A stretch of 42,729 nt of DNA from Escherichia phage Alux-21. Where the stretch lies: the sequence record PQ589898.1, one strand, 5' to 3'. Positions within the stretch are counted from its first letter, which is position 1. The number at the start of each line of letters is the position of its first letter. Below are positions 10,186 to 12,075 of this stretch, piece after piece. The translations under genes and the position numbers were made by a program. The notes below the pieces were generated by a model, which saw only the letters and a list, made by a program, of their open reading frames with translations, was not told the origin of the DNA and searched no databases.

Positions 10186-10245
10186 ATAGGTATAAACGAT
10201 TATGTATTTACCAAAGTAAAGGTGTAGTATTTATCACATAGGGCG
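10186..10245 (+). promoter_or_regulatory. conserved intergenic element, copy B (promoter/operator-like)
   Basis: ATAGGTATAAACGATTATGTATTTACCAAAGTAAAGG...TAGTATTTATCAC; similar to copy A at 5327-5380; contains TTTAC-N4-GTAAA inverted repeat. Confidence 0.4.
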
Positions 10246-10443
10246 GCGGCAGGATGCAGCCGGAGAGGAGCAACGCAGGGGCTTGATCGTAGTGTCAGGA
10301 TTCCCAACCGTGAGGCCAGAACGCACACACTACCGGAAACGGAGAACGCTAGTGCGGTTACTGAACCGAGGCTACCGACGAAGCACGACGCCCACCAATT
10401 AACCAACCCACCCCACCAGCGTGGGGCCAATCAACAAGAGGAA

Positions 10444-10791
10444 ATGGGCATGTTTAAACGCTTACTGGCGCGCCTTTTTGGGCGCAAGCCGAAAGACAGT
10501 AGCGAACGCATCATGGTTGCTGCTGGGCCGCGTGGTCACGAACATATTGCACGCGAACTGGCCAAAGCGCGCAGCAACCAGGCCACCGCCAGGCGTTTTG
10601 GTTCAAGCGCCACCAGCAGCCGCCGTGACGATTCAAGCGACCTGATGAACCCGCTGAACCCGTTAAGCCCGGTCAGCCCGATTTATCATAGCAGCGGTGA
10701 CAGCCACCACCGCAGCAGCGGCCACGACAGCGGCGGATATGACGGCGGCAGTTGTGACAGCAGCAGTTCATCCAGTGGGGGTTGCGATTGA
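10444..10791 (+). CDS. hypothetical low-complexity Ser/Gly/Asp-rich protein
   Basis: 115 aa; SD AAGAGGAAA before ATG; basic N-terminus, C-terminal half SSGDSHHRSSGHDSGGYDGGSCDSSSSSSGGCD; about 240-nt untranslated leader upstream. Confidence 0.45.
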   Translation: MGMFKRLLARLFGRKPKDSSERIMVAAGPRGHEHIARELAKARSNQATARRFGSSATSSRRDDSSDLMNPLNPLSPVSPIYHSSGDSHHRSSGHDSGGYDGGSCDSSSSSSGGCD

Positions 10792-10861
10792 ACAACATCA
10801 TTTTCATTTACGCCATCAGCGCACTGCTGGCGGCACATGCACTGATTGAATTGGGGGTTTT

Positions 10862-11515
10862 ATGAAACAGGTAACGATTGAGAACGTGCAAGCGCGTATT
10901 GCGCAGTTAGAAACGTCTGAGCAGATTGGCGGAAGGCTTCCTATTCGCCACGAATTTGAAATGGCGTGTTTGCGGATGTTGGCCGATCTGATGGGCGGCG
11001 TTGAAGATGACGTGCGCAACGTGGTTGGCTTGCTGGAAAACAACGAATGGGCTGAACACTGCACTAAAACAGAGCTTGGCCAGCGCCTGGAAAGCGAAAT
11101 CACCCGCCTGGTTGGCAGCGTGCAGCCAGTGCCGGTGACCGAATGGACGGAAGGAAATGAACCACCAGCGTTCGGTAAATATTACGTTCGCTACATGACC
11201 GATACAGGACAATATTTCTGCATTGCTGAATGGCTTGAATATGACTGCTGCGTGCCAAACCGTAACATGGTTAAAATGTGGCTGGCTGACCATTCGCGTT
11301 CTATGAATGCGCTAAAAGGTGTAACGCACTTCACCAGGCTGCCAGAGTGGCCAGAGCCGCAGCAACCAGCCACAGATAACACCGCGCAGCAGTTCGAAGC
11401 GTTGGCCGCCAGCGGCAAGAGTGAACACCTGTTGAATGCCGAGCGGATAGCCAGGGAAGCAAAAGCACTGGCAGACCGTCTGAACGCCACCAGCGCGGGA
11501 AGCGGCAAGCCATGA
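10862..11515 (+). CDS. hypothetical protein, DUF551-like
   Basis: 217 aa; segment ...KGVTHFTRLPEWPEP resembles the THW-PLP-PP signature of DUF551 prophage proteins (from memory). Confidence 0.45.
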   Translation: MKQVTIENVQARIAQLETSEQIGGRLPIRHEFEMACLRMLADLMGGVEDDVRNVVGLLENNEWAEHCTKTELGQRLESEITRLVGSVQPVPVTEWTEGNEPPAFGKYYVRYMTDTGQYFCIAEWLEYDCCVPNRNMVKMWLADHSRSMNALKGVTHFTRLPEWPEPQQPATDNTAQQFEALAASGKSEHLLNAERIAREAKALADRLNATSAGSGKP

Positions 11516-11835
11516 GCCTGGCAACCGATATTCTGTGGCACGCTTTTGTTGTGAAGGCGAAGGAACCGCGCAAGCAACAACCACAGGCGAAGCCTGTCAA
11601 ACCAAAACCGGCAGTAACCGCAATCAGCAACCGCGGCCTGCACATGGCGCGCGTTCCTGGTTGTCAGCGGCTGGCGTGGGGTTGGCAAGTGACGTGCATG
11701 GATGGCGAGCAGCGCCACACCCTGGGAACATTCAAAACAATGCCACGCGCACACATCGCATGGCGACTTTGGCACCTGTGGAAGCGCCGGGGTTTTGCCG
11801 ACATCCCCACCGGACCAAACCACGCAGGAGATTAA
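11512..11835 (+). CDS. hypothetical protein
   Basis: 107-aa ORF, ATGA overlap with upstream gene; basic, Trp-rich. Confidence 0.4.
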   Translation: MSLATDILWHAFVVKAKEPRKQQPQAKPVKPKPAVTAISNRGLHMARVPGCQRLAWGWQVTCMDGEQRHTLGTFKTMPRAHIAWRLWHLWKRRGFADIPTGPNHAGD

Positions 11836-11838
11836 AAA

Positions 11839-12048
11839 TTGGATGAGAACACGTTAGATTTGCCAATAATACAGGTTATCAACGGCGTAACATGGCGACT
11901 GACCTGTATAAATTACGACGCTGACGGCGCTGAACAGTCAGCCTATATATTCGCCAAAGACACAAAGGACGCCGAACGCAGACTGGAAAGCCTTAAGAGC
12001 ACAGGAAGGCTTCAGGATGGCGTGCTGGTAGATGTGTTTCATGAGTAG
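11839..12048 (+). CDS. hypothetical protein
   Basis: 69-aa ORF followed by strong terminator. Confidence 0.45.
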   Translation: MDENTLDLPIIQVINGVTWRLTCINYDADGAEQSAYIFAKDTKDAERRLESLKSTGRLQDGVLVDVFHE

Positions 12049-12075
12049 TGATTGAAAATTGAGCGAAACCATTAA

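What the first reader, a model, noticed from the sequence alone, without database searches (positions are those of the whole stretch)
10186..12060. Unknown gene block with long leader and a Ser/Gly/Asp-rich low-complexity protein
Downstream of the primase terminator a 240-nt GC-rich untranslated leader precedes four ORFs of unknown function. The first product has a basic N-terminus and a C-terminal half dominated by Ser, Gly, Asp and His. The block ends at a strong terminator just before the iteron array. The leader could hold a structured RNA.
Basis: seen in the sequence. Interest (0 to 1): 0.4.

Follow-up and report, generated by a model that had tools for sequence, protein, structure and literature searches.

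The report
New structured phage leader RNA
The "long leader" after the primase gene is a real, previously uncatalogued ~155-nt folded RNA, sited at what is inferred to be the very start of a phage transcript and shared almost unchanged by about 170 unrelated enterobacterial phages. The four genes behind it are ordinary accessory genes of unknown function.

Summary
Primase terminator (10156-10173), AT-rich promoter, GC-rich untranslated leader, ORFs of unknown function and a strong terminator (12074-12091) before an iteron array are all present. The important part is the leader. Window 10240-10393 is a ~155-nt RNA with six helices (P1-P6, two three-way junctions). It is 80-99% identical in 171 of 50,697 phage records from unrelated groups (Jilinvirus, Dhillonvirus, T1-like Drexlerviridae, Sortsnevirus, Klebsiella and Serratia phages). 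It is absent from 5,426 E. coli genomes and 72,556 plasmids, has no Rfam match, and its sequence was not found in the searchable literature. Covariation is strong: 23 of 37 pairs change on both sides, against 2-8 in slid controls, and P1 and P5c each have about 10 compensated variants. It always starts 7-10 nt after a -10 box, ahead of unrelated cargo ORFs. Close relatives (ep3, ECO1230-10) keep the same promoter without it. Function is unproven. My best guess is a portable cis-acting leader that works through a host factor, put-like protection of its transcript from termination or decay. A processed trans-acting decoy RNA is nearly as likely. The ORFs match only unknown-function PHROGs.

The parts
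10156..10181 (+). Intrinsic terminator of the primase operon (stem 10156-10173 plus T run). It insulates the RNA promoter from upstream transcription.
   Evidence: The identical terminator is present in PT1, ep3 and ECO1230-10. Terminators also lie just upstream of the element in BUCT618-type and Dhillonvirus loci.
10183..10235 (+). Promoter region. The block TTATTGATAGGTATAAACGATTA is conserved in Jilinviruses, and the -10-like TAGTAT lies at 10225-10230. The -35 is weak, so the promoter may depend on an activator.
   Evidence: the same region is conserved in ep3 and ECO1230-10, which lack the RNA; in every sequence type a -10-like hexamer ends 7-10 nt before P1. It is near-consensus (11 of 12) in Dhillonvirus and BUCT618-type phages. 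No transcription start has been mapped experimentally.
10240..10393 (+). Core of the structured RNA (~155 nt).

- P1: 10241-10248 with 10386-10393.
- P2: hairpin 10249-10257, loop AGGAU.
- P3: 10267-10271 with 10371-10376, A10374 bulged.
- P4: 10282-10287 with 10294-10299, loop CGUAGU. A possible 3-bp extension is 10279-10281 with 10303-10305.
- P5a: 10314-10315 with 10366-10367.
- P5b: 10317-10319 with 10361-10363.
- P5c: 10322-10326 with 10352-10356.
- P6: 10333-10335 with 10340-10342, GAAA loop.

Invariant unpaired stretches: GGAGA (10262-10266), AACGC(A/U)GGGG (10272-10281), AACCGUGA (10306-10313), CACU (10328-10331), AGAACGC (10343-10349) and GACGA(A/G)G (10377-10383).
   Evidence: Alignments are. 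The covariance model R1 is; the window scores 192.7 bits with one copy only, on the + strand. Independent single-sequence folds of the P5-P6 arm agree across types. No reading frame stays open across types.
10394..10410 (+). Partly conserved A/C-rich, G-poor tail (ACCAAUUAACCAACCCA). ACC follows P1 within 0-2 nt in most types, and a UUAACCAAC-like motif recurs.
   Evidence: BLAST similarity to other phage groups ends at about 10399-10408.
10411..10426 (+). Lineage-specific hairpin CCCCAC-CAGC-GUGGGG with no U tract, so not a terminator. It is present in the window, Bas97 and PT1, with an analogous hairpin in MQ-4, and absent from the other types.
10444..10791 (+). ORF1. Basic N-terminus and a Ser/Asp/Gly/His-rich C-terminal half. 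The likely start is ATG 10450. It is an insertion relative to PT1 and Bas97.
   Evidence: It matches phrog_13684 (unknown function, E = 8e-25) and has no Pfam match. Only 14 homologues were found among 5.8 billion proteins, all on phage-sized or short contigs, including ECO1230-10 gp39.
10788..10865 (+). 25-codon hydrophobic mini-ORF (LNNIIFIYAISALLAAHALIELGVL). It has a TTG start here and ATG in PT1 and Bas97. It overlaps the ORF1 stop and the ORF2 start (ATGA).
   Evidence: It is annotated as Bas97_0053.
10862..11515 (+). ORF2, 217 aa, a mosaic accessory protein of unknown function.
   Evidence: It matches PHROGs 26126, 20174 and 19524, all of unknown function. It has no Pfam match and no PDB relative.
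11512..11835 (+). ORF3, 107 aa. A counterpart is present at this locus in all four compared Jilinvirus genomes, directly upstream of the terminator and iterons.
   Evidence: It matches phrog_4947 (E = 3e-36). Same-sized ORFs occupy the same position in Bas97, PT1, ep3 and ECO1230-10. It has no PDB relative.
11839..12048 (+). ORF4, 69 aa, TTG start, unknown function.
   Evidence: It matches phrog_10509 (E = 1.4e-9).
12074..12099 (+). Strong intrinsic terminator that closes the transcription unit.
   Evidence: It is also present in Bas97 and Arya.

Best explanation
**What it is.** Window 10240-10393 encodes a previously uncatalogued, horizontally mobile structured RNA of about 155 nt. It has two stacked three-way junctions, six helices and long invariant junction strands.

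**How it is arranged.** It is made as the extreme 5' end of a transcript. A -10 box ends 7-10 nt before helix P1, which pairs the 5' end of the RNA with its 3' end. After a short A/C-rich linker the transcript continues into whatever genes lie downstream. Here these are ORF1, a mini-ORF and ORFs 2-4, ending at the terminator at 12074.

**Proposed mechanism.** I propose that it is a portable cis-acting leader module. As it emerges from RNA polymerase it folds and binds a host component, most likely the transcribing RNA polymerase or elongation complex. This makes its own transcript resistant to premature termination or decay, so the downstream genes are expressed. This would work like the put RNAs of phage HK022, but with an unrelated fold.

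**Shown here.**
- The RNA fold and its covariation.
- The strand.
- The position relative to the -10 box.
- Modular insertion at a shared promoter.
- Restriction to phages.
- Absence of a shared phage-encoded protein partner in the one genome pair compared.

**Inferred.**
- The transcription start site.
- Action in cis.
- A host partner.
- Antitermination or protection as the effect.

The four to five ORFs are ordinary, exchangeable accessory cargo.
For: 1. **Real RNA.**
   - 85.7% of cells are paired, against about 40% in slid controls.
   - 23 of 37 pairs change on both sides, against 2-8 in slid controls.
   - 0 of 500 shuffles reach the observed values.
   - There are 10 compensated versions of P5c and at least 10 of P1.
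   - All three P6 pairs covary.
   - The U-G pairs in P4 and the + strand-only model hits fix the strand.
   - No frame stays open across types.
2. **Selection acts on the RNA itself.**
   - Similarity between unrelated phages starts at the inferred transcription start and ends about 10-15 nt after P1, while promoters and downstream ORFs differ.
   - In Dhillonvirus the RNA is 95-99% identical, while the DNA polymerase gene is 90-95% identical.
3. **5'-terminal position.** A -10 hexamer ends 7-10 nt upstream of P1 in all types. Terminators lie just upstream in three lineages.
4. **Plug-in module.**
   - ep3 and ECO1230-10 keep the same terminator and promoter but lack the RNA. PT1, Bas97, Arya and the window carry it directly after the -10.
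   - In T1-like phages it follows one copy of a promoter motif that recurs every 0.5-1.5 kb.
5. **Always a leader.** In about 12 independent contexts it is followed, after 25-56 nt and with no terminator, by a Shine-Dalgarno sequence and a co-oriented ORF.
6. **Architecture like known antitermination units.**
   - In Dhillonvirus the order is: near-consensus promoter, RNA, first gene, a conserved GC-rich terminator, then 20 nt later the next gene of a 12.5-kb replication operon. The consensus scan found no candidate promoter between the terminator and the next gene.
   - Several other lineages have a terminator 0.7-3 kb downstream followed by more co-oriented genes.
7. **Partner is probably host-encoded.**
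   - Apart from endolysin and a few weak or short matches, the only similarity between the window and a complete Dhillonvirus genome is the RNA itself.
   - The family occurs only in phages of Enterobacterales, plus one T1-like phage deposited as a Pseudomonas phage.
Against: - **No experiment.** The transcription start, the 3' end and any effect on termination are untested.
- **Dispensable in close relatives.** ep3 and ECO1230-10 lack the RNA, so it is not essential for that operon. The late activator gene beyond the window's terminator has its own promoter-like site.
- **Antitermination looks unnecessary in T1-like phages.** Promoters there recur about every 1 kb.
- **No similarity to put.** HK022 put RNAs are about 70 nt with two stems (PMC9378689). 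The model finds nothing in the HK022 PL/PR region; the best score is 5.7 bits.
- **A terminator at the end of a unit is also what any ordinary operon has**.
- **A closed P1 and an ACC(A) tail would suit a processed, stand-alone RNA equally well.**
Confidence: 0.35

Rival explanations
1. It is a stand-alone, trans-acting non-coding RNA. The element is an RNA gene with its own promoter and is cut out of the 5' end of the transcript in the A/C-rich tail. The closed P1 leaves a compact, stable particle. This particle binds and titrates a host protein or a defence component, acting as a decoy or sponge. The downstream ORFs are simply co-transcribed neighbours.
For: - P1 pairs the 5' and 3' ends, as in many stable RNAs.
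- ACC follows P1 in most types.
- Junction nucleotides are extremely conserved across phage families, which implies a specific macromolecular partner.
- Presence or absence varies between close relatives, and the element sits among variable accessory genes such as methyltransferases. This is typical of counter-defence loci.
- Cargo ORFs are unrelated.
- In T1-like phages it is one unit in a row of small, separately promoted genes.
- The P2 loop A(A)GGA is kept while its stem varies from 2 to 6 bp. From my own knowledge, this resembles a CsrA-type site.
Against: - It is never followed by its own terminator.
- It is never found at the end of an operon or facing the next gene. It is always 25-56 nt upstream of a Shine-Dalgarno sequence and start codon.
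- No processing site has been demonstrated.
- Only one conserved GGA hairpin is present, too few for a CsrB-like sponge.
- No tRNA, tmRNA, 6S or Y-RNA signal was found.
Confidence: 0.3
2. It is a passive expression cassette. A 5'-terminal structured domain shields the triphosphate end from RppH and RNase E, and an unstructured A/C-rich linker favours ribosome loading. No specific partner is involved.
For: - P1 begins 0-4 nt from the inferred start. From my own knowledge of ompA-type stabilisers (Emory, Bouvet and Belasco 1992), 5'-terminal stem-loops stabilise E. coli mRNAs only when they sit at the extreme 5' end.
- Linkers are G-poor and A/C-rich in all types.
- ep3, which lacks the RNA, has a similar A/C-rich leader.
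Against: A single hairpin would be enough for this. Here about 70 unpaired or junction nucleotides are invariant across phage families, and the RNA is more conserved than the polymerase gene. That is not expected for a generic stabiliser.
Confidence: 0.15
3. It is a riboswitch or other ligand or condition sensor. A metabolite, ion or signalling nucleotide binds the junction core and changes downstream expression, for example through Rho access to the C-rich tail or through an alternative pairing.
For: - The size, multi-junction architecture and invariant junctions are aptamer-like.
- All sequences tolerate an alternative helix, GGGGCU (10278-10283) with AGGCUACC (10369-10376), which competes with P3 and P4.
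- The tail is C-rich and G-poor, as Rho utilisation (rut) sites are.
Against: - No conserved terminator/antiterminator pair and no Shine-Dalgarno-sequestering platform were found.
- Downstream genes have no functional coherence.
- There are no bacterial members at all, unlike known riboswitch classes.
- No Rfam class matches.
- The two double compensations favour P3 and P4 over the alternative helix.
Confidence: 0.08
4. It is not a functional RNA. It is a conserved DNA site (origin, packaging or protein-binding site) or a small protein-coding gene, as several GenBank records annotate it.
For: - Records place ORFs over it: Bas97_0052, a minus-strand ORF in PT1, an extended start for bas15_0048 and SO-1 gp46.
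- In some phages it lies near replication genes.
Against: - No frame is open in all types, and 1-5-nt length differences shift the frames.
- Translated similarity appears in two forward frames and one reverse frame, as expected for nucleotide-level conservation.
- Compensatory changes with strand-specific G-U pairs indicate a folded + strand transcript.
- It is absent from sister phages that replicate normally.
- In BUCT618 it lies next to tail genes.
Confidence: 0.02

Closest known systems
HK022 putL/putR RNAs (polymerase-utilisation, RNA-only processive antiterminators; PMC9378689)
   Same: - Phage-encoded.
- Restricted to enterobacterial phages that use host RNA polymerase.
- Sits directly after an early promoter (putL starts at about +3).
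- Heads a unit that contains terminators.
- Needs no phage protein; here no shared phage protein was found.
   Different: - put is about 70 nt with two stem-loops and a small triplex. This RNA is about 155 nt with six helices and two three-way junctions.
- No sequence or model similarity was found; the best score in the HK022 PL/PR region is 5.7 bits.
- Antitermination is untested here.
- Unlike put, this RNA is missing from close relatives that share the same promoter.
5'-terminal stabilising stem-loops of E. coli mRNAs (ompA 5' UTR type; own knowledge)
   Same: The helix starts within a few nucleotides of the 5' end and is followed by a single-stranded leader and a Shine-Dalgarno sequence.
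   Different: It is far larger, and its sequence is conserved in the unpaired regions as well as in the stems.
Riboswitch aptamers (multi-junction, P1-closed RNAs in 5' UTRs)
   Same: - 5' UTR location.
- A closing P1 helix.
- Invariant junction core.
- GNRA-capped peripheral helix.
- A possible K-turn-like GA/AG motif (10265-10268 with 10375-10383), read from the sequence only.
   Different: - No expression platform.
- No coherent gene association.
- No bacterial representatives.
- No Rfam hit.
Phage 'morons' (autonomous promoter-gene-terminator inserts)
   Same: The block 10183-12099 is bracketed by terminators, has its own promoter, and carries cargo that differs between sister phages.
   Different: The promoter and ORF3 are conserved in all four compared Jilinvirus genomes. 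The mobile, variable parts are the RNA and the first ORFs.
Unnamed candidate structured RNAs predicted in bulk from IMG/VR (Fremin et al. 2023, PMC10690425)
   Same: That screen mined the same kind of data, conserved intergenic regions of IMG/VR phage contigs, and lists thousands of unnamed candidates of up to 151 nt.
   Different: I could not check whether this element is among them, because no supplementary files are held. The paper's text does not describe it.

Membership tests
HK022 put RNA family | About 70 nt, two stem-loops (stem I with a triplex, stem II) | tested here: not met
   The element is about 155 nt with six helices and two three-way junctions. The put architecture is taken from PMC9378689.
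HK022 put RNA family | Sequence and structure homology to putL/putR | tested here: not met
   Model R1, run without filters over HK022 27600-30100 (the PL/PR region), gave a best score of 5.7 bits, E = 0.17.
HK022 put RNA family | Promoter-proximal position in the nascent transcript, upstream of terminators in the same unit | tested here: met
   A -10 box ends 7-10 nt before P1 in all types. Terminators lie 0.7-3 kb downstream in most lineages, and one is conserved after the first gene in Dhillonvirus.
HK022 put RNA family | Terminator read-through in cis that depends on the beta-prime zinc-binding domain of RNA polymerase | not testable with these tools
   This needs in vivo or in vitro transcription assays.
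Any Rfam 15 family | Covariance-model match at or near the gathering score | tested here: not met
   The gathering-threshold scan of the window found only two tRNA hits elsewhere. A scan at E <= 10 of 10100-10500 hit only the upstream terminator and one 18-nt chance match. Four other sequence types gave no hit over the element at E <= 5.
Riboswitch | Conserved aptamer supported by covariation | tested here: met
Riboswitch | Expression platform (terminator/antiterminator pair or Shine-Dalgarno sequestration) coupled to P1 | tested here: not met
   No U-tract hairpin follows P1 in any type. Linkers are variable and G-poor, and no conserved anti-Shine-Dalgarno sequence was found. An alternative central helix exists, but covariation does not favour it.
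Riboswitch | Association with functionally coherent downstream genes, and presence in bacteria | tested here: not met
   Cargo ORFs fall in different unknown-function PHROGs and have no Pfam match. There are no bacterial copies.
CsrB/RsmZ-type protein sponge | Many repeated GGA-loop hairpins | tested here: not met
   Only the P2 loop is a conserved GGA hairpin. The GGA in the P4 3' strand is base-paired and is lost through compensation in L095.
tRNA / tmRNA / tRNA-like element | Cloverleaf or tRNA-like domain detectable by ARAGORN or the Rfam tRNA/tmRNA models | tested here: not met
   ARAGORN finds only tRNA-Arg at 40782-40858. Rfam finds nothing in the leader. The P1 + ACC(A) end resembles an acceptor end, but there is no T-arm.
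5'-terminal mRNA stabiliser (ompA type) | Stem-loop beginning no more than about 4 nt from the transcript's 5' end | tested here: inconclusive
   The -10 position implies a 0-4-nt 5' overhang, but the transcription start has not been mapped.
Phage moron | Own promoter and terminator, inserted between conserved genes, variable among relatives | tested here: met
   Terminators lie on both sides. The promoter is conserved. Cargo differs between the window, Bas97, PT1, ep3 and ECO1230-10.

The most novel reading that the evidence does not exclude
The element is a new class of phage-specific RNA that binds a host factor and spreads between unrelated enterobacterial phages as a plug-in at transcription start sites. 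It could be a second, structurally unrelated kind of RNA-only processive antiterminator. Alternatively it could be an abundant immediate-early decoy RNA that neutralises a host RNA-binding protein, nuclease or defence system.
Probability: 0.4. Interest if true: 0.85.

Novelty: new variant of a known kind. Interest (0 to 1): 0.7.

Why it matters
Few structured RNAs of coliphages have a known role, and only one RNA-only antiterminator family (put) is known. This element is large and well supported by covariation. It is more conserved than an essential polymerase gene and is exchanged among at least five unrelated phage groups.

It is also easy to study. It is present in tractable model phages: BASEL Bas15 (PaulFeyerabend) and other BASEL-named Dhillonviruses, Bas97, HK578 and SECphi18. 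Natural relatives with and without it share the same promoter (PT1 and Bas97 against ep3 and ECO1230-10). Its function can therefore be tested directly in E. coli K-12.

There is a practical side for annotation. Many deposited genomes place spurious ORFs over it or extend the next gene into it. A covariance model would correct more than 170 records.

Tried and rejected
- **Single-sequence folding.** Neither strand folds more stably than shuffled sequence (z = +0.5 and +0.7). Thermodynamic stability alone would have missed the element.
- **RNAalifold on a plain MAFFT alignment.** It recovered only part of the structure. On the model-fitted alignment it proposed an alternative central helix. I rejected that helix as the main fold because two double compensations support P3 and P4 instead: A10269-U10373 to G-C, and C10282-G10299 to U-A in L095.
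- **Rfam.** No match.
- **Literature.** Searches by topic and by exact sequence found nothing on this element.
- **Looser DNA patterns aimed at distant members.**
  - The pattern AGAACGC..AGGCNANCGACGA returned mostly chance loci, plus two real divergent members, L095 and L119.
  - The pattern TTCCNAACCGTGA..AGAACGC gave ten unrelated coding-sequence hits.
  - The genome scan gave six pattern matches. Only one was real, and it lies on a phage-like 42.7-kb contig.
- **A shared phage protein partner.** None was found between the window and a Dhillonvirus genome.
- **Common function of cargo genes.** None was found. The 'Gam-like nuclease inhibitor' label that some depositors give the first Dhillonvirus gene was not reproduced by Pfam or PHROGs.
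- **tRNA/tmRNA-like reading.** Not supported.
- **boxA or nut-like reading of the tail; hammerhead or other ribozyme cores.** I checked these by eye only. They are not convincing and I make no claim.
- **PDB and Pfam searches of ORFs 1-4.** Pfam found nothing for any of the four ORFs; PDB, searched for ORF2 and ORF3 only, found no relative.
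Full report
**1. Observation**

- The primase ORF (7841-10150) ends at an intrinsic terminator at 10156-10173.
- An untranslated stretch follows, up to ORF1 (10444 or, more likely, 10450).
- ORFs at 10444-10791, 10862-11515, 11512-11835 and 11839-12048 run to a strong terminator at 12074-12091.
- An array of at least 14 T(T/G)GTCACC repeats lies at 12101-12422.
- ORF1 has the stated composition.

Two corrections apply.
- The 'leader' is composite. An AT-rich promoter part has 24% GC, and a GC-rich part (10240-10393) has 62% GC. The window is 54% GC.
- A fifth ORF was missed. It has 25 codons, is hydrophobic, lies at 10788-10865 and is translationally coupled to its neighbours. 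It is annotated in Bas97.

**2. The leader is a conserved, phage-restricted element**

BLAST of the block against 50,697 phage records showed that the ORFs are shared only with close relatives: Jilinvirus phages Bas97, PT1, ECO1230-10, ep3 and Arya. In contrast, about 170 nt of the leader match at 80-93% identity in unrelated phages, where nothing is annotated.

With the leader alone as query, 171 records match:
- Dhillonvirus (HK578, several BASEL-named phages, SECphi18, Sodalis phage SO-1);
- T1-like Drexlerviridae (swan01, JK16, Motto, PHB17);
- Sortsnevirus (sortkaff, IME279);
- Lumpael, BUCT618, Klebsiella phage KA2-1 and Serratia phage MQ-4.

Other collections give almost nothing.
- There is no match in 5,426 complete E. 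coli genomes or in 72,556 plasmids.
- In 185,579 species-representative genomes the only model-validated copy lies on a 42.7-kb contig. That contig carries the Sortsnevirus sequence type and is binned as a Cereibacter MAG.
- In 241 million metagenome records, 15 copies were validated: 12 on 39-51-kb phage-sized contigs and three on short fragments of 1-9 kb.
- The window holds one copy, on the + strand.

**3. Structure**

Alignment of eight sequence types showed long invariant stretches interrupted by segments that change in a compensatory way. I derived a six-helix model by hand (coordinates are in 'parts') and built covariance model R1 from it. I then realigned 30 distinct sequences to the model, including two divergent members, L095 and L119, found with a 3'-half pattern.

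Counts on that alignment:
- 85.7% of cells form standard pairs, against 29-42% when partners are slid by 1-3 columns.
- 23 of 37 pairs show changes on both sides, against 2-8 in the slid controls.
- The covariation score is 0.348, against 0.04-0.11 in the slid controls.
- None of 500 shuffles reaches the observed values.

This is a conservative count, because the model alignment mis-registers P1 and P5 of the Dhillonvirus type.

Independent checks agree.
- Single-sequence folds of the P5-P6 arm give the same architecture for all 26 distinct arms, with ten different compensated versions of P5c.
- Duplex folding of the two ends recovers P1 in at least ten sequence versions.
- All three P6 pairs covary under a mostly GNRA loop.
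- P3 is supported by A-U to G-C in 13 sequences.
- The first P4 pair is supported by C-G to U-A in L095.

The strand and non-coding status are also clear. U-G pairs and + strand-only hits fix the strand. No reading frame is open in all types, and types differ in length by 1-5 nt. The ORFs annotated over the element in several records are therefore spurious.

From my own knowledge of K-turn consensus, the invariant purine-rich internal loop next to P3 looks like a K-turn: GA|GG at 10265-10268 facing CC|GAC|GA at 10375-10381. This is a lead, not a result.

RNAalifold proposes a competing helix, GGGGCU with AGGCUACC. All sequences tolerate it, but the two double compensations do not favour it.

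**4. Not a known family**

Rfam 15 gives nothing for the window version or for four other types. ARAGORN finds no tRNA or tmRNA there. Full-text searches by topic and by exact sequence strings found no description. A bulk screen of IMG/VR lists thousands of unnamed candidates (PMC10690425). I could not check whether this element is among them.

**5. Position and modularity**

In every type a -10-like hexamer ends 7-10 nt before P1. In Dhillonvirus and BUCT618-type phages the promoter is near-consensus: TTGACA, 16-18 nt, then TATAGT, TATTAT or TATCAT. The RNA is therefore the extreme 5' end of its transcript, with an inferred 0-4-nt overhang. Terminators lie immediately upstream in the window, in BUCT618-type phages and in Dhillonvirus.

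Similarity between phage groups begins at the inferred transcription start and ends 10-15 nt after P1.

Three comparisons show that it is a plug-in.
- **Jilinvirus.** ep3 and ECO1230-10 keep the same primase terminator and promoter (TTATTGATAGGTATAAACGATTA ... TAGTAT or TAGAAT) but run straight into a short leader. The window, Bas97, PT1 and Arya carry the RNA exactly after the -10.
- **T1-like phages.** The RNA follows one copy of a promoter motif, AATAGCAC-N5-GYTAAAAC ... CATAAT. That motif recurs every 0.5-1.5 kb in front of ordinary short leaders.
- **Dhillonvirus.** The RNA is nearly universal: about 134-140 of about 155 records. It is 95-99% identical, while the DNA polymerase gene is 90-95% identical.

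In Dhillonvirus the RNA heads the 12.5-kb replication and DNA-metabolism operon. Its first gene is followed by a conserved GC-rich terminator whose loop is flipped in some genomes while the stem is kept. The next gene's Shine-Dalgarno sequence follows directly, and the consensus scan reported no promoter in the 20 nt between the terminator and that gene.

**6. The genes**

- ORF1 matches phrog_13684. It has only 14 homologues among 5.8 billion proteins, including gp39 of ECO1230-10, a phage without the RNA. It is an insertion relative to PT1 and Bas97.
- ORF2, ORF3 and ORF4 match only unknown-function PHROGs. They have no Pfam match, and ORF2 and ORF3 have no PDB relative.
- ORF3 has a counterpart at this locus in the four compared Jilinvirus genomes.
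- The first ORFs behind the RNA in ten other contexts fall in different unknown PHROGs or in none.
- Apart from endolysin and a few weak or short matches, the only thing the window shares with a complete Dhillonvirus genome is the RNA. It shows up as translated similarity in two forward frames and one reverse frame, as expected for nucleotide-level conservation.

So the cargo is exchangeable. Any specific partner of the RNA is more likely host-encoded than phage-encoded.

**7. Mechanism**

Shown:
- a folded + strand RNA under strong purifying selection, in unpaired regions as well as stems;
- a position that begins 7-10 nt after a -10 box;
- portability between phages;
- restriction to phages;
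- single copy in the window;
- a co-oriented ORF always following after a 25-56-nt G-poor linker, with no terminator.

Inferred: the invariant junctions bind a host macromolecule.

I commit to a cis-acting leader that acts on its own transcript, at about 0.55 for cis action overall. The most specific version is put-like modification of the transcribing polymerase, or protection from termination or decay, at about 0.35. The reasons are the constant leader position, the upstream insulation and the order promoter-RNA-gene-terminator-operon in Dhillonvirus.

Three observations count against this version.
- The element is dispensable in sister phages.
- T1-like phages have a promoter about every kilobase.
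- There is no similarity to put (PMC9378689).

The processed trans-acting decoy RNA is nearly as likely, at 0.3. The closed P1, the ACC tail, the accessory-locus behaviour and the conserved A(A)GGA loop on a variable P2 stem all fit it. A passive stabiliser (0.15) does not explain the invariant junctions. A riboswitch (0.08) lacks a platform, a coherent regulon and bacterial relatives.

**8. Verdict**

The notable object is a new structured RNA family in enterobacterial phages. The protein genes are ordinary accessory cargo. Function is unproven. Decisive experiments are simple because model phages with and without the element exist.

Noticed in passing
window 12101-12422: An array of at least 14 copies of T(T/G)GTCACC in both orientations, with several 10-14-nt inverted pairs. 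It lies between the terminator and the late-activator gene (12482-12916, phrog_836). GGTSACC occurs 23 times in the window, against 4.7 expected. This is a candidate origin or regulator-binding region. The conserved upstream ORF3 might be its binding protein.
   Followed up: partly
window 10788-10865: A 25-codon hydrophobic mini-ORF overlaps the ORF1 stop (TTG start) and the ORF2 start (ATGA). It has an ATG start and sits directly behind the RNA in PT1 and Bas97 (Bas97_0053). It may encode a small membrane peptide.
   Followed up: partly
window 11512-11835 (ORF3): A same-sized ORF occupies this position in the four compared Jilinvirus genomes. ORF3 shows a weak match (E = 0.003) to the C-terminal part of an HNH-endonuclease PHROG. 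By eye it resembles an AP2-like DNA-binding domain. Pfam and PDB searches do not confirm this.
   Followed up: partly
L002, L006, L023, L029, L095, L119, L156, L159 (T1-like and related phages): A recurrent promoter-associated motif, AATAGCAC-(TTTTT or GAATT)-G(T/C)TAAAAC, is followed 17-22 nt later by (TG)G-CATAAT or TATAAT. It occurs every 0.5-1.5 kb on both strands. The upstream box is too far from the -10 to be a normal -35, so this may be a phage-specific promoter class.
   Followed up: partly
window 10183-10235; L171-L173: The block TTATTGATAGGTATAAACGATTA ... TTTACC ... TAGTAT after the primase terminator is conserved in all compared Jilinviruses, with or without the RNA. The -35 is poor, which suggests an activator-dependent or otherwise regulated promoter.
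   Followed up: partly
L153 8639-8658 and the equivalent in other Dhillonvirus loci: The terminator hairpin GGCCCGC-N6-GCGGGCC after the first gene of the RNA-led operon is conserved. Its loop is flipped (TAATCT against AGATTA) in some genomes while the stem is kept. The next gene's Shine-Dalgarno sequence lies inside the U-tract region.
   Followed up: partly
L147 (QFQS01000013.1, 42,764 bp): A contig binned as a Cereibacter sphaeroides MAG carries the Sortsnevirus sequence type of the RNA (same P1 and P5-P6 arm as sortkaff and IME279). At 42.7 kb it is the size of a Sortsnevirus genome, so it is probably a mis-binned phage genome.
   Followed up: no
Bas97_0052; PT1 QIG65642.1; bas15_0048 start; SO-1 gp46: Deposited annotations place short ORFs on either strand over the RNA or extend the downstream gene into it. 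These are probably annotation artefacts.
   Followed up: yes
window 40782-40858 (-) and 42487-42560 (+): A tRNA-Arg (TCT) lies next to the integrase region, as in Bas97. A second, weaker tRNA-like hit scores 40.9 bits in Rfam but is not called by ARAGORN. Bas97 encodes an integrase and a CI-like repressor, so this phage group is temperate.
   Followed up: no
window 10277 and 10290: Junction base A10277 and P4-loop base U10290 change together to U and A in L095 and L119. However, the pair is A/A in the Dhillonvirus and swan01 types. This may be a tertiary contact, but it is unresolved.
   Followed up: no
window 10278-10283 with 10369-10376: The alternative helix GGGGCU/AGGCUACC competes with P3 and P4 and is tolerated by all 30 sequences. 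It could be a folding intermediate or a conformational switch.
   Followed up: partly
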